The notes under the pieces were generated by a model. That model saw only the letters and a program-made list of their open reading frames with translations, searched no databases and was not told where the DNA came from. The translations under genes were made by a program, and so were the position numbers. This document shows positions 23,328-51,892 of a stretch of 64,000 nucleotides of DNA, piece after piece (the first letter of the stretch is position 1; each line of letters opens with the position of its first letter). Source of the DNA: an uncultured delta proteobacterium (GTDB lineage: Bacteria; Myxococcota_A; Polyangia; Polyangiales; Polyangiaceae); assembly GCA_963782055.1 (NCBI GenBank), contig CAWAIF010000002.1, forward strand, positions 384,001 to 448,000, in the 5' to 3' direction.

Positions 23328-23754
23328 CGCGTGCCATCGCCAAGGAAGCATGGGGGAGTGAGGGCGGCGCGAAGGGTCAGGATGAGAGAGAGAGAGCGGG
23401 CGCTCTCTGTCGGGAGAGCTTCCCCAGCGCGCCCGGCAGGATTCGACGACGCCCGCACGGGCCAGGACACGACAGAGGCGCGACGCGTGCCATCGCCAAG
23501 GAAGCATGGGGGAGTGAGGGCGGCGCGAAGGGTCAGGATGAGAGAGAGAGCGGGCGCTCTCTGTCGGGAGAGCTTCCCCAGCGCGCCCGGCAGGATTCGA
23601 CGACGCCCGCACGGGCCAGCACACGACAGAGGCGCGACGCGTGCCATCGCGAAGGAAGCAGGGGGGAGTGAGGGCGGCGCGAAGGGTCAGGATGAGAGAG
23701 AGAGCGGGCGCTCTCTGTCGGGAGAGCTTCCCCAGCGCGCCCGGCAGGATTCGA
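23326..23754. repeat. Tandem ~155-bp repeats (starts 23326, 23482, 23636), each carrying the tRNA-Arg 3' end
   Basis: Near-identical units with a variable (GA)n tract and an AGAGAGCG/CGCTCTCT hairpin; third unit runs into the intact tRNA. Confidence 0.92.
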
Positions 23755-23809
23755 ACCTGCGACCTACGGCTCCGGAGGCCGTCGCTCTATCCAGCTGAGC
23801 TACGGGCGC
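23736..23809 (-). tRNA. tRNA-Arg(CCG)
   Basis: GCGCCCG acceptor stem, TAGCTCAGCTGGATAGAGC D-arm, ACGGC-CT-CCG-GA-GCCGT anticodon arm, GGTTCGAATCC; CCA not encoded. Confidence 0.95.
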
Positions 23810-44704: not shown

Positions 44705-45730
44705 GTGCGACGCAAACCGGTGGTGCTGATCACGGGCGCGAACGGCGAGATGGGGCACGGACTCATCCACGCGTTGGCGGACCATCCCGACTACGACGTG
44801 CTCGCCCTCGACATCAAGGACCTGGAGCCCGAGCTCGCCAAGCGCTGCGTGGCGACCATCGCGGGCGACATCCTGGACCGCCACCTGCTCCAGCGGCTGG
44901 TGAGCGAGTTCGAGATCCACGCCATCTTCCACCTCGCCGCCCTGCTCTCGACGCGCAGCGAGTTCTCCCCGGAGACGGCCCACGAGGTGAACGTCACCGG
45001 CACGCTCAACCTGCTCGGTCTGGCCATCGAGCAGTCGCGCTGGCACGGGCAGAAGGTCAAGTTCCTCTTCCCGAGCTCCATCGCCGCGTACGGCGTTCCC
45101 ACCCTCGCCCGCAAGCGGGAGATTGGTCGAGTCGCGGAGGACCAGTGCCTCCAGCCAACGACCATGTACGGCTGCAACAAGCTGTACTGCGAGCACCTCG
45201 GCCGCTACTTCACGCGCCACTACCGGCAGCTCGCGAAGGAACCCGAGACCAAGGGCGTGGACTTCCGCGCCATCCGCTTCCCCGGGCTCATCAGCGCCTT
45301 CACAGTGCCAAGCGGCGGAACGAGCGACTACCTGCCCGAGATGCTGCACGCCGCCGCGCAAGGACAGCCCTACGAGTGCTTCGTCCGGGAAGACACGCGC
45401 ATCCCCTTCATGGCGATGCCCGACGGTATCAACGCCCTCCTCGGCTTGCTCCACGCCCCCGCCGAGAAGCTCTCCGGCTGCGTGTACAACATCGCGGCGT
45501 ACGCGCCGAGCGCCGGCGAGTTCGCTGACCTGGTGCGCCGGGCGTTCCCGGGCGCCGACATCCGCTTCGTCCCCGACGTGCGCCGCCAGGGGATCGTGGA
45601 TTCGTGGCCGGAGGACGTCGACGACCGCTGCGCGCGCCGCGAGTGGGGCTTCTCGCCGAAGTACGACATGACCCGGAGCTTCGACGAGTACCTGCTCCCG
45701 AACATCAAGGCACGCTACAGCTCCATTTGA
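44705..45730 (+). CDS. SDR-type L-threonine 3-dehydrogenase-like protein
   Basis: TGANGEMG, HLAALLS, PTTMYGCNK, GGTSDY, IVDSWP; lies near kbl. Confidence 0.85.
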   Translation: MRRKPVVLITGANGEMGHGLIHALADHPDYDVLALDIKDLEPELAKRCVATIAGDILDRHLLQRLVSEFEIHAIFHLAALLSTRSEFSPETAHEVNVTGTLNLLGLAIEQSRWHGQKVKFLFPSSIAAYGVPTLARKREIGRVAEDQCLQPTTMYGCNKLYCEHLGRYFTRHYRQLAKEPETKGVDFRAIRFPGLISAFTVPSGGTSDYLPEMLHAAAQGQPYECFVREDTRIPFMAMPDGINALLGLLHAPAEKLSGCVYNIAAYAPSAGEFADLVRRAFPGADIRFVPDVRRQGIVDSWPEDVDDRCARREWGFSPKYDMTRSFDEYLLPNIKARYSSI

Positions 45731-45900
45731 GGGGCGCACTCCCAGCCACCCACGCCCAGCAAGCGTCAGCCCCGCCTGTCCCCGGACACCCTTTTTCTGT
45801 CCGGGGACACCCGTGGATCGTTCGCCGGCAAACGAGCGCCCTGTTTTCCCGGGAGCGCGTGGGAGGGGGGGGTGGCATGAGGCGTGCTGAGGAAGGGGGG

Positions 45901-46512
45901 ATGACACCGCTCTTGTTCGGGACCAAGCGCGCGTACTACGCGACGCTGCGTGTGACGCGCCGGCTTCTCGCTCGCTTCGGGCTCACGCCGGCGCGCTTCG
46001 ACCTGCTGTACGCCCTGTTTCGCGTGCCGCACCACTTCTGTTACCAGAGCGATCTGCGCAAGGCGCTGGGGGTGGCGCGGTCGACCATCAGCAAGATGGT
46101 GACGTCACTCCAGGGCATCGGCCTGGTGGAGCGGCTGCCGCCGCTCGAGGACATGCGGCAGGTGGACGTGCAGCTCACGCCGGAGGGGCGCCGCCGCGTC
46201 TCGCGAGCGTTTCGCAGCCTCGTGCGCACGGGGCTCATCAATCTGACGACGGACTCGGCGCTCACGCCGGACCCGCACCACTGGCCCCACCCGAAGGCGT
46301 GCGGCCGCGCCCGACGGTGGCTGTCGCGGCTGCACAGCCGGCTGCGCAACACCTTCGGCGACTTCGCGACCCTGCACGCCGCGGAGGGCGATCCGTACGA
46401 GTCGGGGTGGACCTGGCTCGACCTGGTGGACCGGGTCGCGGCGAACAGGCGCATCGAGCGGCGCCGGGCGTCCGGCGACCCGTTCGAGTGGCCCGCACCG
46501 ATGATCGAGTGA
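45901..46512 (+). CDS. MarR-like winged-helix protein, copy 2
   Basis: Differs from copy 1 at two visible residues (F>L near the start, D>N). Confidence 0.8.
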   Translation: MTPLLFGTKRAYYATLRVTRRLLARFGLTPARFDLLYALFRVPHHFCYQSDLRKALGVARSTISKMVTSLQGIGLVERLPPLEDMRQVDVQLTPEGRRRVSRAFRSLVRTGLINLTTDSALTPDPHHWPHPKACGRARRWLSRLHSRLRNTFGDFATLHAAEGDPYESGWTWLDLVDRVAANRRIERRRASGDPFEWPAPMIE

Positions 46513-46612
46513 GGGCGTTCCCCTCGGTGGCGCTCGCCGCAACGCTTCGCGCCGCCGGCGTCATCGCGCCCGCCCGCGCCCACACCGGCGCCACCGCGCC
46601 ACGCGCCGGCCG

Positions 46613-47182
46613 CTACTCGCGCGCCGCCGCGCCGAACGCCATGTTCATGATGACGGCCTTGCCCGGGCACTTCGAGCCGTCGAAGTGCGCGTCGGTCGCC
46701 ACCTTCTTCATGCACGCCACCGCCTCGGCGCTCAGGTCCTTCGGGTCCTTCGGGTTCGCGACCTCGATCTTCTTGACGTGCCCCTTCACGTCGATGCGCA
46801 GCGTGACGCGCACATGGCCGGTCATGTCCGGCTTCTTCGCGCGCGCCTTGAAGAAACAGCGCTTCACCTTGGGCCGCAGCGCCTGCTCGAAGGGCACCGC
46901 GGGCGCGCCGCACGTGTCGGCCTCCTCGGGCGGCGCGCTCGCCATCGCGCTCGCGCTCGGCGCCGCCGACGCGCTCGGTGCCGCCGACGCACTCGGTGCC
47001 CCCGCGGCACCCGCGGTCGCGCTCGCCGCCTCGCCCGGCGCCGATGCGCTCGGCGCGACCGTTGCGCTCGCGCTCGCCGTGCTCGTTGGCTCCGGCATGG
47101 CGTGCGTCTCCGCCTGACCACCACCGCACGCGCACGCCCACACACACGCCGCCACCAGCACCCCGATGCGTCCCTTTTGCAT
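46613..47182 (-). CDS. Lipoprotein with AgmX/PglI (TonB-C-like) C-terminal domain
   Basis: Ala/Ser/Pro linker; VKRCF..GHVRVTLRID..VACM. Confidence 0.7.
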   Translation of the reverse strand: MQKGRIGVLVAACVWACACGGGQAETHAMPEPTSTASASATVAPSASAPGEAASATAGAAGAPSASAAPSASAAPSASAMASAPPEEADTCGAPAVPFEQALRPKVKRCFFKARAKKPDMTGHVRVTLRIDVKGHVKKIEVANPKDPKDLSAEAVACMKKVATDAHFDGSKCPGKAVIMNMAFGAAARE

Positions 47183-47214
47183 GCGCGCATCTTACTCGCG
47201 CCACGCGCTCCCTC

Positions 47215-47430
47215 CAATCAAACGCAATTGTTTGAAGAGATTTCAATCAATCATTTGACACATCAAACATCGAGCTTTCACCCCTGTCCGCACTGCGCCC
47301 CGGAAATCAGCCTCGACCGAGAATGTGTGGATAACTTGAGGAGAACGCTGTGGGCTTCGGTGTGGACAAAAAAAGTGATTGAGCCGCCACTTTTTTTGTT
47401 GAACCCGGTCACCGTTCTGGTGCACATATG
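47215..47430 (+). promoter_or_regulatory. AT-rich regulatory region with DnaA boxes and a 12-bp inverted repeat
   Basis: TGTGGATAA 47326-47334; TGTGGACAA 47361-47369; ACAAAAAAAGTG-N10-CACTTTTTTTGT 47366-47399. Confidence 0.7.
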
Positions 47431-47459
47431 CCCTCGCAGTTCGCGGTACGTCAGTTCCG

Positions 47460-49620
47460 CGAGCCAACAATCGTAGAAGCCGTAAGGGGCGCTGCGGTCG
47501 GGGGCCGTCCGGGGTCTTCGGACCTCGGGGGGTCGGCCGACCGGGCCCGCAGGCGACGCTTGGACGTCAAATCCAGGCGCACGCGGCGGGTTCGAAAAGG
47601 CGCGGACACTTCGCTCGGCAAGGCCCGTACAAGGCGGCGTCGTTCGAAGGTCCTGCCGGACGTTTCCAGGGAGCAATCCCTTCTGGCGTCCGGTTCTCAC
47701 GGTGGAAGGCACCTCGGTCTCCGGAATGGCATCACCCTTCGCGGGGTGGCGTCGGAACGGAGGCCTCGGCCGGCGATGCATTCGCGGACGGGCTCCAACC
47801 CGGCTCGCGGTCACCGTCGGTGACAGGAGGGGCCTGTCCTCGCACCAAGGAGGGACCCGCCCGGCGAAAGCCGCGCGGGGCAGGAGCTCCGAGGGCACCA
47901 CGCCCTCGTCTCTTTCGCCTTCGCTCGAGCGAGGACGACCCGCGCGACTCTCATGTCATCGCGTCAGCCCGACAAAAGGCCGGCGCGGTGGGCTCTGGTG
48001 AATTCGGACCGGAGGGGTCCGGGCGCAAGCCCGGGCGTCGGAGAGATCGCGTGGCTCGCTGCAGCGTCGTGGCACGGGTGGCTTCGAAAGAGGCTGCTCG
48101 TGGCAGGTGCGCAAGCACCAGACACACGCGCGGCAAACGCTGGCGGGGCAATCCCCCGCGGCGGGCGAGGATCGCGCTCGGACGGAACGTGTCCGTGCGT
48201 CGTAAAGAAAAGTCGTTGCAGAAGTCGAGAGGCCGCGCAGGTCCAAAGAAGCGCCACCCACGCAAGCGGGGGCGTGAACGGGGGCCTGGCCATGGGAACC
48301 GCTCTTGCCCAAAGCAGAGCGCCATCCCCACGGTGAAGAGGCGCGGTGGCGGCGGGATCCTGGCGGCAAAACCAGGCCCGGCGCAGGCTCGTTCGTCCGG
48401 CGCAAGCCAGGCGGGCGCGGTTCGGGGCCTACGGTCTCCGAGCAGCAGGAAGAAGCTCCTTTCGACGGAAGGCGTCTCGGGTCGAGGAAGCGGCGTTGCC
48501 TTCACGGGCGCGTCGAACAGCCGGCCTCGGCGTCTTCGAATCGCCGTTCGGCACCGCGGAGCAATCCGCGACCGGGCGCGAGGAGAGGGCGCGACAGGGA
48601 CGTCAGAGGCTCGGTCGATCGCGCAGGCGGTGGGAACAACACGCCCCCCGGAATGCACGGCGGCCCGCCGAAGCGAGCCACGCGTCGTGAAGCGCAGGGC
48701 TCCTTGATCACGCACCCGACGGGGCAACCTCCACGGTGCGTGGCGCACGCAGGGCCGAGAAACCCCTGCGGACGCGAGGCGCGACCTCATCAGGAACGGA
48801 CGAGGCACGGGTGCTCGCAGTGAAGTTGTCGATGGCAGACGCTGGTCGTACGCATCGCGCGTGCGCGCACGGGATGTCGCAAGGCACCCCGCGGGCGTGC
48901 GCTAGCCCTCAGCCTCCGAGGTCACCGCCCTGAACGCGGTCCCCGGCCAAAGCGGAGTGCGAAACGGTGTGCGAGTACCGCGGGGATTTCATTCCGAAAC
49001 CCCAGGTGCTCGATCCGCGGGCTCGAATCCCACGGAACATTCGACACGGCGGAAGGCGCTCTGGGTCGTGGCTACATCACCCTCTCAACGGGGTGGCGAA
49101 AGCGCGGCTCTGGCTCCGCAGGTGGAAGCACGTGTCGTCGTCGCAAGACGAAGGCGCGCGCGGTCGGGCGCTCGGCGCGAGTCGAGTGTGCGGCGAGCTC
49201 GGTGAGGAATGGATCCCCATCGGGTGCCTGTGGGCGACACGGAGCGTCAGAGGTCGGTCTCTCGTCGGTCAAGGCTCCTCCAGCCGTAACAAGGCGCGGG
49301 GGGTCCGCACGCAGCACGCCGAAAGGCGACAAGCTCGCGTGCACCGGCGGCGAATCGTACCGAAGCAGGTGGTCGGTAATACCGCCACCATCCTCTCCAG
49401 GCCCTGCCGGCGCGAACCGCGCGGGGCCCGTGACGAAGGCATCGGCACCACTGGATGACGCGCGGAGCGGCGCTCGATCCTCGAAAGCGGAGATCGAGAC
49501 GCGCTCTGCGGGTGGATCGTGAGAGGCACGAAGACTGTCTCCGGGGCCAAGCGGCCCGCCACGATCAAGCGACTCCACGAAGGGCGGCCTGGGTGACCAG
49601 GTCGCCCTCGTGCTTTTTTG
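47460..49620 (+). ncRNA. Candidate very large structured non-coding RNA (~2.15 kb), family unknown; 5' end approximate
   Basis: No credible ORF; many GNRA/UUCG-capped stems with G-U pairs on + strand; terminator at the 3' end. Confidence 0.7.
49576..49619 (+). terminator. Intrinsic terminator
   Basis: CACGAAGGGCGGCCTGG-GTGA-CCAGGTCGCCCTCGTG followed by CTTTTTT. Confidence 0.88.
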
Positions 49621-49694
49621 TCGCGCAAGCCTTGCGATCGTTCGCCGGCTTGCGAGCGGGGCACGGGGCGGCAGAAGGCGCTACCCTTCTCCCC

Positions 49695-51035
49695 GTGGAC
49701 AAGGCCCTCCTCTCCCGGCTCTACGACAAGCACGTCGCCACCCTCACCGAGGCCTATGCCAAGGCCCTCGCGAGCGCGGGCTTCGACGCCGCCGTGCTGC
49801 ACTCCGGCTCCCTCGTCCGCAAGACGCGCTTCGACGATCAGGACTGGCCGCTCCGGGTGGTCCCTCACTTCGCGCACTGGCTCCCCCTCGCCGAGCCGGA
49901 CTGCGCGCTCGTCGTCGCCCAGTCGGGCCCGCCGAGGCTCATCCACCCGCACACCACCTCCTTCTGGGAGGCCCCGCCCGCCCCCGAGTCGGACCATTTC
50001 TGGCCGTCCTTCCAGCTCGTGCGGCCCGCCTCGGTGGAGGCGGTGCGGTCCGAGCTGCCCAGCGGTCGGGTGGCGTTCGTCGGGGACGATGAGCGGCGGG
50101 CGGCGGGGTGGGACTTCGCCCCCGAGGCCGTCAATCCGCCTGCCCTCATCGTGGCCTTCGACGCCATCCGCACCCGCAAGACCGCCTACGAGGTGGAGTG
50201 CATCGCCGAAGCCAACCGCCGGGCCTCGCGCGGCCACGATGCGCTGCGCGAGGCGTTCGCCAGCGGCGAGACCGCCGAGCTCGCCCTGCACCTGCTCTTT
50301 TTGAAGGCCACCGCGCAGGACGATCCGGAGACGCCCTACAAGAACATCGTCGCGGGCGGCCGCCACGCCGCCACCCTGCACCACGTGAGCTACCGCAAGG
50401 ACGCCTCCGGCGCGCCCAGCCTGCTCGTCGACGCGGGCGCCGTCTGCCTTGGCTACTGCTCCGACATCACGCGCACCTGGGTCAAGGGCGACGGGGCGGG
50501 CGCCAGCGCCTTCGCCTCCCTCGTGGCGGCGGTGGAGGCGATGCAGAAGCGGCTGGTGGAGCGCATCGCCATCGGCCTGCTGTACGAGGAGCTGCATGAC
50601 GAGTCGCACCGGCAGGTGTCCGCCATCCTCCACGAGCTGGGAGTGGCCCGCATGTCCCCCGAGGCCATCGACCACGAGGGCATCAGCCGCGCCTTCTATC
50701 CTCACGGTCTGGGTCATTCGCTTGGCCTCCAGACGCACGACGTCGGCTGCGCCACCACCAGACCGCGCGCGGACAACCCCTTCCTGCGCAACACCGCCCG
50801 GATCGAGACCGGGCAGGTCTTCACCATGGAGCCGGGCGTCTACTTCATCGAGGAGCTGCTCGCCCGCCTGAAGGCCGGGCCGCACGCGGGGGACATCGAC
50901 TGGGACGTGGTGGGGGCGCTCGCGCCGTTCGGCGGGGTGCGGGTGGAGGACGACATCCTGGTGCGCGCCGAGGGCGAGCCGGTGCGGAATTTCACCCGGG
51001 AGGTGCTGCCGTGGGGCGGAGGCCTGGTCCGGTAG
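49695..51035 (+). CDS. pepQ: Xaa-Pro dipeptidase
   Basis: PHFAHWLP, DAGA..SDITRT, PHGLGHSLGLQTHDVG, TMEPG, GGVRVEDD. Confidence 0.9.
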   Translation: MDKALLSRLYDKHVATLTEAYAKALASAGFDAAVLHSGSLVRKTRFDDQDWPLRVVPHFAHWLPLAEPDCALVVAQSGPPRLIHPHTTSFWEAPPAPESDHFWPSFQLVRPASVEAVRSELPSGRVAFVGDDERRAAGWDFAPEAVNPPALIVAFDAIRTRKTAYEVECIAEANRRASRGHDALREAFASGETAELALHLLFLKATAQDDPETPYKNIVAGGRHAATLHHVSYRKDASGAPSLLVDAGAVCLGYCSDITRTWVKGDGAGASAFASLVAAVEAMQKRLVERIAIGLLYEELHDESHRQVSAILHELGVARMSPEAIDHEGISRAFYPHGLGHSLGLQTHDVGCATTRPRADNPFLRNTARIETGQVFTMEPGVYFIEELLARLKAGPHAGDIDWDVVGALAPFGGVRVEDDILVRAEGEPVRNFTREVLPWGGGLVR

Positions 51036-51136
51036 CCCCTCCCGTCGGCCGCCCCTCGCCCGATCGTTAGCCAGCCAACCCTTCCCGCCCACCGTGGGCG
51101 TTGACGGGGCGGGGGTGCCGGGCAACCCTTCGGTCG

Positions 51137-51892
51137 ATGGGTATCGGCTTCGTCGGGCATGGCGCACCCACCCTCGCGCTGGACCCGAAAAAGGGAGCAG
51201 AGGTGGCATCGGTCACGGAGGCCGAGCCCACACCAGCTGCCATCCTGGTCGTCTCGGCGCACTGGGAAGAGGAGGAGCCCACCCTCGGAACAACGGAGAA
51301 GCGCCCCCTCATCTACGACTTCTACGGCTTCCCGGAGCCGCTCTATCGCGTGCAGTACCCCGCGCCGGGCGCGCCGGACCTCGCCGAGCGGGTGCGGGGG
51401 CTCGTCCCGGGGGTCCGCCAGGTCGATCGAGGGCTGGACCACGGCGTGTGGGCACCCCTCATTCACATCTCACCAGGAGGGAAGGTGCCCGTGCTCCAGC
51501 TCTCGCTGGCCTATCCCGGGGACCCTCGCAAACTCTTCGACCTTGGCGCGTCGCTCGCGCCCCTCTCCGCCGAGGGCGTGCTCCTGCTCGGAAGCGGCAA
51601 CGTGGTGCACAACCTCCGCGCCATCGACTTCCATGATCGCACCCCGCCGCCAGGCTGGGCGATCGAGTTCGATGCGTGGTGCGAGGATGCGCTGGTGCGC
51701 AAGGACTACGACCTGCTGATCGACTTCGCGCGTCGCGGGCCAGGCGCCTCCCTCGCCCACCCCACCCACGAGCACTTCCTGCCGCTCCTCCTCGCTGCCG
51801 GGGCCGCGAGCGCAGGAGCTCTCGCCCCCCACTTCCCGCTGACAGGCTTCGAGTACGCGACGATCGGTCGTCGCTGCGTCGTCTGGTCGTAG
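51137..51892 (+). CDS. DODA-type extradiol ring-cleavage dioxygenase (LigB/YgiD family)
   Basis: HGAP, SAHW, IYDFYGFP, RGLDHG, GSGNVVHNL, HPTHEHFLPL. Confidence 0.9.
   Translation: MGIGFVGHGAPTLALDPKKGAEVASVTEAEPTPAAILVVSAHWEEEEPTLGTTEKRPLIYDFYGFPEPLYRVQYPAPGAPDLAERVRGLVPGVRQVDRGLDHGVWAPLIHISPGGKVPVLQLSLAYPGDPRKLFDLGASLAPLSAEGVLLLGSGNVVHNLRAIDFHDRTPPPGWAIEFDAWCEDALVRKDYDLLIDFARRGPGASLAHPTHEHFLPLLLAAGAASAGALAPHFPLTGFEYATIGRRCVVWS

What the first reader, a model, noticed from the sequence alone, without database searches (positions are those of the whole stretch)
47460..49620. Candidate giant (~2.15 kb) structured non-coding RNA of no recognisable family
Seen: this is the only multi-kb stretch in a gene-dense window without a credible gene; its ORFs lack GC3 bias and motifs. 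It is dense in stems closed by stable RNA tetraloops: CCGGGGTC-TTCG-GACCTCGG (47509), GGGA-GCAA-TCCC (47669), CGGC-GAAA-GCCG (47862), CCGGGC-GCAA-GCCCGG (48019), CACGGGTGGCTTC-GAAA-GAGGCTGCTCGTG (48073), GGTGC-GCAA-GCACC (48106), CGCGGA-GCAA-TCCGCG (48555), CGGTGT-GCGA-GTACCG (48965), TCGTC-GCAA-GACGA (49138), CGCTCGGC-GCGA-GTCGAGTG (49169) and CGCC-GAAA-GGCG (49317). The loops are GNRA/UUCG and the stem mismatches are G-U only on the + strand. It has purine-rich linkers, an AT-rich upstream region and a terminator at 49576-49619. Known: this signature typifies large folded RNAs (rRNA, RNase P, introns, OLE, GOLLD, ROOL), but I find none of the rRNA, RNase P, tmRNA or intron core motifs, and OLE, GOLLD and ROOL are under about 1 kb. 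Inference: a stand-alone, highly structured RNA, or a polycistronic RNA precursor, possibly undescribed.
Basis: partly seen in the sequence, partly recalled or inferred. Interest (0 to 1): 0.95.

Follow-up and report, generated by a model that had tools for sequence, protein, structure and literature searches.

The report
Giant folded RNA of soil myxobacteria
This 2.2-kilobase stretch is a gene for a heavily folded RNA, not a protein; many soil myxobacteria of the order Polyangiales carry it, soil RNA libraries contain it, and it matches no catalogued RNA family, though what it does is unknown.

Summary
Window ~47435-49615 (+) is a stand-alone gene for a ~2.18-kb structured non-coding RNA.

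- **Not coding:** there is no conserved ORF, and only 41 of 268 gap events are multiples of 3.
- **Folded:** it has 13 GNRA/UUCG hairpins against 2.1±1.4 in shuffles. MFE z = -10.7. A consensus fold of 723 pairs has 347 with compensatory changes.
- **Not catalogued:** Rfam 15 gives no match for the window or for 7 orthologous loci.
- **Expressed:** contigs from metatranscriptome runs of three studies cover 47445-49615. One ends at the terminator U-run and continues into 24 A's.
- **Widespread:** two covariance models and BLAST found verified relatives of 1.7-2.4 kb in 36 genomes. That includes 29 of 151 sampled genomes of the order (9 families). No confirmed relative turned up in the class or phylum samples.
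- **Promoter:** every verified promoter carries sense-oriented TGTGGA(T)AA boxes (the DnaA-box consensus) at phased offsets. The same boxes sit upstream of dnaA.

Function is unknown. My best guess is an abundant scaffold RNA whose transcription DnaA controls. Seven literature searches found no description of it.

The parts
47326..47334 (+). Upstream box 1, TGTGGATAA. This is a perfect match to the DnaA-box consensus TTATCCACA read on the other strand (consensus recalled).
   Evidence: It is one of only 5 perfect boxes in the 7.58-Mb genome. Boxes sit at about -109 from the RNA's 5' motif in many relatives.
47361..47369 (+). Upstream box 2, TGTGGACAA (one mismatch to the consensus).
   Evidence: Only 3 places in the genome have two relaxed boxes within 60 nt: this promoter, the dnaA upstream region, and C3:207845. 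The -76 offset recurs across genera.
47366..47430 (+). Conserved promoter block: an A-run, a T-run, a -35-like TTGAAC (47399-47404) and a -10-like CATATG (47425-47430; CATAAC in relatives).
   Evidence: The block is conserved in all 7 genus orthologs and in the metagenome loci. The sigma-70 consensus scan itself found 0 sites, so the hexamer assignment is inference.
47435..49615 (+). The RNA itself, about 2.18 kb. The 5' end is approximate (47428-47445).
   Evidence: RNA-run contigs span 47445-48980, 49027-49580, 47571-49615 and 47453-49456. Four metagenome contigs of relatives begin 5-12 nt before the 5' motif. The consensus fold has 723 pairs, 347 with compensatory change.
47439..47464 (+). 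5' hairpin, containing the family's most conserved motif GAAG[T/G]TCGCGG...
   Evidence: Searches show it in all verified relatives, with changes on both stem sides (e.g. TCACGG...TCGTGA). It is a top-level domain.
47468..48180 (+). Domain I (~710 nt).
   Evidence: Top-level domain in the alifold consensus. The sub-region 47596-47775 has 53 pairs, 26 compensatory, 94.0% paired against 86.1% in shuffles (0 of 500 reach it).
48189..48814 (+). Domain II (~625 nt).
   Evidence: Helices with 4-5 compensatory pairs, e.g. 48471-48478 with 48597-48604 and 48555-48560 with 48565-48570.
48815..49455 (+). Domain III (~640 nt).
   Evidence: Helices 49055-49062 with 49241-49248 (5 compensatory pairs) and 49118-49123 with 49226-49231.
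49458..49570 (+). Two 3' hairpins (49458-49513 and 49515-49570).
49581..49619 (+). Intrinsic terminator: a 12-pair stem at 49581-49608 and a U-run at 49614-49619.
   Evidence: It is conserved in the orthologs. The X2 RNA contig ends at 49615 and runs on into 24 A's that are not in the DNA.
46613..47182 (-). Divergent upstream neighbour, a TonB_C-domain protein gene. This is context, not part of the RNA.
   Evidence: Pfam PF03544. It lies upstream in 6 genus genomes and 6 metagenome loci but not in other genera.
49695..51035 (+). Downstream neighbour, an Xaa-Pro dipeptidase (PepQ). This is context only.
   Evidence: Pfam PF21216 and PF00557. It lies downstream only in part of the genus.

Best explanation
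Window ~47435-49615 (+) is a stand-alone gene for a ~2.18-kb, highly structured non-coding RNA.

Shown:
- It has its own conserved promoter and an intrinsic terminator.
- It has a multi-domain fold kept by compensatory changes: a 5' hairpin, three domains of ~0.6-0.7 kb, two 3' hairpins, and about 47 hairpin loops, 13 of them GNRA in the consensus.
- It is present in RNA libraries from soil and sediment.
- It is the founding example of a family of 1.7-2.4 kb RNAs found in many genomes of its order (Polyangiales, by record titles), with one or two copies per genome.

Inferred:
- Transcription is controlled by DnaA. Every verified promoter carries sense-oriented TGTGGA(T)AA boxes at fixed, roughly helical-turn-phased offsets (-76, -87, -98, -109, -131, -142). 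The same boxes sit upstream of dnaA.
- The RNA works through its folded shape. It would be an abundant architectural or scaffold RNA (a ribonucleoprotein or an RNA-only assembly held together by GNRA-tetraloop contacts), not a base-pairing regulator, an mRNA or a leader.
- The conserved core carries the function, and the variable hairpins behave like expansion segments.
For: **Not coding.** Every open stretch of at least 90 codons in G000 is broken by stops, or shifted by lengths that are not multiples of 3, in most of the 21 other near-full sequences. Only 41 of 268 distinct gap events are multiples of 3.

**Structure.**
- 13 tetraloop hairpins against 2.13±1.38 in shuffles.
- MFE z = -10.7 from 18 shuffles.
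- Helices with at least 3 compensatory pairs: 38 on the + strand, 13 on the reverse complement, 0-3 in 5 column shuffles.
- The G000-only MFE fold (752 pairs) stays paired in 69.5% of cells in 20 other sequences that are ~62% identical. Slid controls give 38-44%. Pairs with a double-sided change number 180 against 56-85.
- Sub-domain A1: 26 of 53 pairs compensatory, with 0 of 500 shuffles reaching any of the five measures.
- Global alifold: 723 pairs, 95.8% of cells paired, 347 compensatory.

**No known family.** Rfam gives nothing at gathering score for the window, only E >= 0.7 noise on 47100-49800, and 0 matches at E <= 1 on 7 orthologous loci.

**Expression.**
- 12 of 14 listed runs are RNA.
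- Contigs of X1, X2 and X9 (three studies) cover 47445-49615 at word depth 99-923. The X2 contig ends at 49615 with a 24-A loose end.
- Metagenome contigs L042, L046, L055 and L056 begin 5-12 nt before the 5' motif.

**Family.**
- 6 of 6 genus genomes and 22 metagenome loci.
- G019 and G028; G058, G141, G095 and G037; G014 and a second G037 copy.
- The R2 model hits 36 of 151 order genomes. 22 of the 23 new hits I examined have the 5' motif, upstream boxes, 5-13 tetraloop hairpins on + against 0-4 on the reverse complement, and no gene-like ORF.
- 17 of 20 loci have a terminator 1676-2272 nt downstream.

**DnaA boxes.**
- All 25 properly anchored loci have at least 1 sense box and no antisense box. 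The background is 0.0013 per 160 nt.
- 7 of 8 dnaA upstream regions carry boxes, against 4 boxes in 54,420 nt of control DNA.
- In G000, only 3 places have paired boxes, and they include this promoter and the dnaA upstream region.
Against: - No experiment shows a function, a protein partner, catalysis or an oligomer. The scaffold reading rests on anatomy alone.
- All RNA evidence comes from assembled contigs. Contigs cannot show strand, true ends or level, and RNA libraries can hold DNA (tool note).
- The alifold statistics are measured on a structure fitted to the same alignment. No R-scape-type test was run.
- DnaA binding is inferred from a recalled consensus and from the parallel with dnaA promoters. 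Another factor could read TGTGGA.
- The sigma-70 scan found no promoter.
- Carriage is patchy: 0 of 15 and 0 of 10 genomes in two families, and only about half of its own family. The RNA is therefore not essential to the order.
- In X1 the 3' part has four times the depth of the 5' part (923 against 240). That could mean a stable processed fragment.
Confidence: 0.8

Rival explanations
1. The 2.2-kb transcript is a precursor that is cut into several smaller stable RNAs, each with its own role.
For: The consensus fold falls into independent top-level domains of 0.6-0.7 kb plus small hairpins. In run X1 the 3' part (49027-49580) has word depth 923 against 240 for 47445-48980. Metagenome contigs L042, L046 and L055 leave the RNA just before the terminator hairpin, and L040 and L047 join internal pieces to the 5' end.
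Against: Single contigs span almost the whole RNA in two other studies (X2 47571-49615, X9 47453-49456) and in several metagenome records. The X1 break coincides with a patch of small variant contigs at 48951-49055, as strain mixtures give. All domains are retained together in all 20 full-length loci. Contigs cannot settle the matter either way.
Confidence: 0.12
2. It is a large ribozyme. The fold exists to build a catalytic centre, not a scaffold.
For: Its size, multi-domain fold, many GNRA loops and short invariant single-stranded islands resemble the large natural ribozymes. That comparison is from general knowledge.
Against: No match to any ribozyme family in Rfam (group I or II introns, RNase P and others). 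No flanking exon-like or mobile context. No substrate is evident. Nothing here tests catalysis.
Confidence: 0.08
3. The important element is the DNA. The phased DnaA boxes would form a DnaA-titrating or origin-related site, and the transcript would be secondary.
For: Boxes lie at phased offsets in every promoter. In the genus the locus is 16-38 kb from dnaA.
Against: In G156 the RNA is 715 kb from dnaA on the same contig. In G141 it lies at least 0.74 Mb inside a contig that lacks dnaA. Selection clearly acts on 2 kb of RNA base-pairing, which a DNA site would not need.
Confidence: 0.04
4. It is a decayed or unusual protein-coding gene, a very long leader of pepQ, or a mobile-element remnant.
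For: GC-rich DNA gives long chance ORFs here, up to 425 codons in G000.
Against: No ORF is conserved, and gap lengths show no preference for multiples of 3. A terminator separates it from pepQ, and the downstream gene differs between genomes. It is single-copy in G000, with housekeeping neighbours and no integrase or transposase.
Confidence: 0.01

Closest known systems
GOLLD and ROOL RNAs (large ornate bacterial and phage RNAs)
   Same: Large, ornate, GNRA-rich non-coding RNAs of unknown function, recognised by covariation. GOLLD is described as the largest of the three classes studied, 'many members exceeding 800 nucleotides' (PMC12286853, passages read).
   Different: No covariance-model match. 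This RNA is about 2-3 times longer. [quoted passage not shown] Whether it forms a homo-oligomeric cage was not tested.
OLE RNA (ornate, large, extremophilic; Bacillota)
   Same: A chromosomal, abundant, large structured RNA that acts with protein partners (recalled). It belongs to the same informal class of large ornate RNAs.
   Different: No Rfam match. The phylum differs. OLE is about 600 nt (recalled). No gene is adjacent to this RNA across genera.
Ribosomal RNAs (16S and 23S)
   Same: It lies between 16S and 23S in size. It has a multi-domain fold with a conserved core and variable hairpins that come and go like expansion segments, and an A/T-run promoter block.
   Different: No match to any rRNA model, even at E <= 10. 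It is a stand-alone gene, not in an rRNA operon. It is confined to one order and missing from many of its genomes.
DnaA-regulated promoters (the dnaA autoregulated promoter and other DnaA-box genes)
   Same: Consensus DnaA boxes lie just upstream of the core promoter. The same box type sits upstream of dnaA in these genomes.
   Different: The product is a giant non-coding RNA. I know of no DnaA-box-controlled structured RNA (recalled, and the library searches did not target this). Binding was not tested.

Membership tests
Any Rfam 15 family (including OLE, GOLLD, ROOL, HEARO, raiA, RNase P, tmRNA, 6S, group I/II introns, SSU/LSU rRNA) | A match to the family's covariance model at its gathering score. 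| tested here: not met
   The window has only a tRNA at 23736-23809. Region 47100-49800 at E <= 10 gives 5 chance-level hits, the best at E 0.7 and all far below gathering score. Seven orthologous loci give 0 hits at E <= 1.
GOLLD / ROOL | Encoded in phages or prophages, often near tRNA islands (PMC12286853, passage). | tested here: not met
   The neighbours are MarR, TonB_C, PepQ, LigB, ROK and RF3. In other genera they are an oxidoreductase, OmpA and others. It is single-copy in G000.
GOLLD / ROOL / OLE | Homo-oligomeric RNA-only assembly (PMC12286853 abstract). | not testable with these tools
   The only lead is a CGCG palindrome in the hairpin loop at 49411-49416, present in 19 of 22 sequences. 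It is invariant, so it gives no covariation evidence.
Informal class 'large ornate bacterial ncRNA' | Several hundred nt or more, non-coding, with an extensive covariation-supported secondary structure. | tested here: met
Stand-alone RNA gene (own promoter and terminator) | A conserved promoter block, an intrinsic terminator, and transcript ends that coincide with them. | tested here: met
   Ends come from contigs only, and the sigma-70 consensus scan was negative.
Protein-coding gene | An ORF conserved in frame, with indels in multiples of 3. | tested here: not met
   stops and frame-breaking length differences in the orthologs; 41 of 268 gap events are multiples of 3.
DnaA regulon | DnaA-box consensus sites in the promoter. 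| tested here: met
   The consensus TTATCCACA is recalled, not taken from a call.
DnaA regulon | DnaA binds the sites and changes transcription. | not testable with these tools
   Needs ChIP or EMSA and reporter assays.

The most novel reading that the evidence does not exclude
This is the first member of an undescribed class: the largest structured non-coding RNA of bacteria apart from ribosomal RNA (1.7-2.4 kb). It is order-wide in Polyangiales and present at high contig depth in soil RNA libraries. It is wired to the replication initiator DnaA through phased DnaA boxes. On this reading it would be a growth- or cell-cycle-coupled RNA machine, either a large ribonucleoprotein or a self-assembling RNA body, whose job is not yet imagined.
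Probability: 0.45. Interest if true: 0.92.

Novelty: categorically new. Interest (0 to 1): 0.88.

Why it matters
Large structured RNAs with an unknown job are rare. Each one found so far (OLE, GOLLD, ROOL) has opened new RNA biology, most recently RNA-only nanocages (PMC12286853, abstract and passages read). This one is two to three times longer than those. It belongs to a group of soil bacteria known for large genomes and complex behaviour (recalled). Contigs of it stand at word depth 99-923 in three RNA libraries. Its promoter points to control by the replication initiator DnaA, which gives a concrete first experiment. It also shows that GC-rich environmental genomes still hide RNA genes on the scale of ribosomal RNA.

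Tried and rejected
- **Flank cover.** The flanks 45500-47308 and 49721-51500 had no cover in any of the 4 laid runs.
- **Share of a run.** I could not compute one. The 'million letters' figures are contig totals, so abundance is given only as contig word depth.
- **DNA(?) run X12.** It held only two ~240-nt pieces at depth 2-3, which is uninformative.
- **GC skew.** Cumulative skew of contigs C2 and C3 gives no clear origin signal.
- **Partner gene.** I looked for a conserved neighbour. The TonB_C gene is adjacent only within the genus, and other genera have other neighbours.
- **pepQ synteny.** It holds only for G004 and G005, and at a distance for G001.
- **Model R1 (47596-47775).** It was too insensitive at large sample sizes: 7 of 151 in the order and 2 of 151 in the phylum sample. 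R2 replaced it.
- **Hits outside the order.** G374, G308 and G225 (E 2e-4 to 1e-3) lack boxes and tetraloop excess. G075 inside the order is also false. Six further weak R2 hits (G097, G160, G032, G077, G142, G168) were not examined.
- **Chance motif matches.** The two Winogradskya matches to the 22-nt motif were treated as chance and not examined.
- **Palindromic loops as a sign of kissing dimers.** Only 4 of 98 unpaired runs qualify, and none covaries.
- **Sigma-70 promoter scan.** 0 sites.
- **Earlier findings of this scan.** Nothing bears on this locus.
- **Literature.** Seven searches found no description. Subscription journals are not in the library.
- **Box anchoring.** In one search my anchor regex failed on 3 loci (G171, G149, G112) and mis-anchored 5 (G003, G005, G037, G046, G065). 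Their boxes are seen instead.
Full report
**1. What is in the sequence**

Window 47460-49620 has no gene-like ORF. With GC3 >= 0.82 as the test, the last gene before it ends at 47182 (- strand). The next listed ORF starts at 49455; it is pepQ, which I start at 49695. Upstream GC falls to 0.53 at 47150-47449. A 12-pair GC-rich hairpin at 49581-49608, followed by a T-run, closes the stretch.

A mechanical count of stems of at least 4 pairs closing GNRA or UUCG gives:
- 13 on the + strand of 47440-49615;
- 2 on the reverse complement;
- 2.13±1.38 (max 8) in 500 dinucleotide shuffles;
- 1.69±1.48 (max 6) in 54 other tiles of the window.

The MFE is -1190.4 kcal/mol against -1086.2±9.8 for 18 shuffles (z = -10.7). 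The reverse complement gives -1058.7.

**2. It is conserved, not coding, and its pairing is under selection**

The stretch is single-copy in its genome. BLAST found collinear homologs at 60-63% identity in 6 of 6 genomes of the same genus. Record titles call these genomes Polyangiales or Polyangiaceae MAGs or 'uncultured delta proteobacterium'. A 22-nt invariant 5' motif recovered the same six genomes plus two chance matches in Winogradskya, and 22 metagenome loci.

On a 25-sequence alignment (2974 columns) no ORF is conserved. Every open stretch of at least 90 codons in G000 is interrupted, or shifted by a length that is not a multiple of 3, in most of the 21 other near-full sequences. Only 41 of 268 distinct gap events are multiples of 3. 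Whole hairpins come and go between orthologs.

A covariation scan that uses no energy model gave these counts:

| Helices with | + strand | Reverse complement | 5 column shuffles |
|---|---|---|---|
| at least 3 compensatory pairs | 38 | 13 | 0-3 |
| at least 4 compensatory pairs | 15 | 4 | 0 |

Forty-nine mutually compatible helices carry at least 2 compensatory pairs.

As a test that does not depend on the alignment's own covariation, I folded the G000 sequence alone (752 pairs) and projected that fold onto 20 other sequences, leaving G000 out. It stays paired in 69.5% of cells, against 38-44% when the 3' partners are slid by 1-3 columns. Pairs with a double-sided change number 180 against 56-85. 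The support is even along the RNA, at 61-78% per 250-nt bin.

For the sub-domain 47596-47775 (18 sequences from 3 genera), RNAalifold predicts 53 pairs, 26 with compensatory change. Cells are 94.0% paired against 86.1% in shuffles. None of 500 shuffles reaches any of the five measures, and slid controls give 36-50%.

A global RNAalifold consensus (12 sequences; counts taken on 22) has 723 pairs, 95.8% of cells paired and 347 pairs with compensatory change. It has 47 hairpin loops, 13 of them GNRA in the consensus. The layout is a 5' hairpin (47439-47464), three domains (47468-48180, 48189-48814, 48815-49455) and two 3' hairpins, followed by the terminator. These last figures are measured on a fitted structure and lean towards it.

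Two lie in hairpins of variable length, and two are not conserved.

**3. It is in RNA libraries, with ends where the gene predicts them**

Of 14 runs listed as holding the stretch, 12 are metatranscriptomes. Eight of them hold at least 87% of the sampled words.

I laid four runs on window 45500-51500:
- Run X1 gives contigs at 47445-48980 (word depth 240) and 49027-49580 (depth 923).
- Run X2 gives one contig at 47571-49615 (depth 144). It continues into 24 A's that are not in the DNA, which marks an RNA 3' end inside the terminator U-run on the + strand.
- Run X9, a related strain with 87 differences, gives 47453-49456 with adapter sequence at both ends.

These three runs come from three studies.

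Among the relatives, four metagenome contigs (L042, L046, L055, L056) begin 5-12 nt before the 5' motif, directly after the conserved promoter block. Contigs cannot prove strand, ends or level. Taken together they agree with a transcript of about 47435-49615.

**4. How wide the family is**

BLAST islands showed full-length collinear homologs in another genus of the family (G019, ~2.4 kb) and in another family (G028, ~1.78 kb).

A covariance model of 47596-47775 (R1) found G058, G141, G095 and G037, all verified as collinear ~1.8-2.3 kb loci. In a 40-genome run it also found G014 and a second copy in G037.

A model of the 5' domain built from 9 genera (R2) hit 36 of 151 sampled genomes of the order at E <= 0.01. 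I examined 23 of the new hits. Twenty-two have all of the following:
- the GAAG[T/G]TCGCGG start;
- upstream boxes;
- 5-13 tetraloop hairpins on the hit strand against 0-4 on the other;
- no gene-like ORF in the 1.4-1.7 kb held.

One hit (G075) is false, and six weaker hits were not examined.

Counting those already known, 29 of 151 genomes (9 families) are verified carriers, and 36 genomes overall. Two families had no hit (0 of 15 and 0 of 10). Seventeen of 20 loci fetched in full have an intrinsic terminator 1676-2272 nt after the 5' motif, usually followed at once by a gene.

In the class and phylum samples (151 genomes each), the only hits outside the order were three weak ones that lack boxes and tetraloop excess. 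I write 'not found in those searched', not 'absent'.

**5. Promoter and DnaA boxes**

Upstream of a conserved A-run/T-run, -35-like and -10-like block lie TGTGGATAA (47326-47334) and TGTGGACAA (47361-47369). TGTGGATAA is the reverse complement of the DnaA-box consensus TTATCCACA; the consensus is recalled and comes from no call.

In the G000 genome:
- There are 5 perfect boxes, against 5.7 expected from composition.
- Only 3 places have two relaxed boxes within 60 nt. They are this promoter, the region just upstream of dnaA (C2:450323 and 450335), and C3:207845.

All 25 properly anchored family loci have at least one box in the sense orientation and none in the antisense. The offsets cluster at about -76, -87, -98, -109, -131 and -142, roughly one helical turn apart. 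The background is 0.0013 per 160 nt. The loci my regex mis-anchored also show boxes.

Seven of 8 dnaA upstream regions from across the order carry the same boxes, and four of them (plus G000) carry them as an inverted pair 12 nt apart. Control DNA has 4 boxes in 54,420 nt.

The locus is 16-38 kb from dnaA in the genus. In G156, however, it is 715 kb away on the same contig. The boxes therefore belong to the RNA's promoter and not to an origin. That DnaA binds them is inference.

**6. What it is not**

Rfam 15 gives nothing for the window except a tRNA elsewhere. Region 47100-49800 gives only chance-level hits at E <= 10. Seven diverse orthologous loci give no hits at E <= 1. Neighbours are housekeeping genes (MarR, TonB_C, PepQ, LigB, ROK, RF3) and differ between genera, so there is no phage, mobile-element or operon context and no constant partner gene. 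Seven full-text searches found no description. Earlier notes of this scan hold nothing on it.

**7. How it most likely works**

Shown: it is a stand-alone, expressed RNA gene whose ~2 kb of base-pairing is conserved across an order, with a conserved core and expansion-like hairpins.

Inferred:
- **(a)** It acts through its folded form as an abundant architectural RNA, either a ribonucleoprotein scaffold or a self-assembling RNA. This follows from selection on the pairing itself, the many GNRA loops that typically make tertiary contacts, and the lack of any target-like or coding feature.
- **(b)** DnaA sets its level, which would tie it to replication or growth state.

I put the gene-and-fold statement at about 0.95, DnaA control at about 0.5, and the scaffold mechanism at about 0.35. 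The rivals are a processed precursor, a ribozyme, a DNA-level DnaA site, and a coding or leader sequence. They are listed separately with their evidence.

**8. Comparison and novelty**

The closest known things are the large ornate RNAs OLE, GOLLD and ROOL. GOLLD is described as the largest of these, 'many members exceeding 800 nucleotides', and as phage-encoded (PMC12286853, passages read). This RNA shares their general character. It fails the membership test for each family (no model match), it is 2-3 times longer, and it is chromosomal. In size it lies between 16S and 23S rRNA but matches no rRNA model. I rate it as a new class and not a member or variant of a known one. The caveat is that subscription literature could not be searched.

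Noticed in passing
G000:C2:450323-450343 (about 2.3 kb beyond the window's end; locus L070): An inverted pair of DnaA-type boxes (TTATCCACA, 3 nt, TGTGGAAAA) lies just upstream of dnaA, which is only ~16 kb from the RNA gene. The same inverted pair recurs upstream of dnaA in G122, G156, G058 and G001.
   Followed up: partly
G000:C3:207820-207880 (locus L147 1521-1580): The third box cluster in the genome has four phased TGGA(A/G)A-type repeats (AGTGGAAAG, TGTGGAAAA, TGTGGAAAA, CGTGGAGAA) in a gap between two - strand ORFs. It could be another DnaA-controlled promoter or an origin-type site.
   Followed up: partly
Metagenome loci L040, L047 (5' ends) and L042, L046, L055 (3' ends): Some contigs join internal pieces of the RNA directly to its 5' motif. 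Others leave the RNA for unrelated sequence just before the terminator hairpin (after ...CCCACGCAGCAA). These are either chimeric assemblies or hints of processed or permuted forms.
   Followed up: no
Window 48951-49580 in run X1: The 3' part of the RNA has about four times the contig word depth of the 5' part (923 against 240). The assembly breaks at a patch of small variant contigs at 48951-49055. This is either strain collapse or a stable 3' fragment.
   Followed up: no
G037 (C23 and C8); also G122, G171, G095, G109: Some genomes give two hits. The second G037 copy is verified, with its own promoter carrying four TGTGGA-type repeats, only one of which (TGTGGATAA) is a strict box.
   Followed up: partly
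Window 49411-49416 and 48024-48028: The hairpin loop CGCGAA holds a CGCG palindrome in 19 of 22 sequences. A second loop holds UCGA in 20 of 22 relatives but GCAA in G000. These are possible kissing-loop sites, with no covariation to support them.
   Followed up: partly
Window 23736-23809 (-): A tRNA gene, the only Rfam gathering-score match in the window.
   Followed up: no
Order-wide carrier list: Verified carriers have genomes of 3.8-11.5 Mb. The small-genome families of the order (about 2.7-4.8 Mb, e.g. f8, and f9 with only 1 weak unverified hit in 23) have almost no hits. Carriage may go with large genomes. This was not tested statistically.
   Followed up: no
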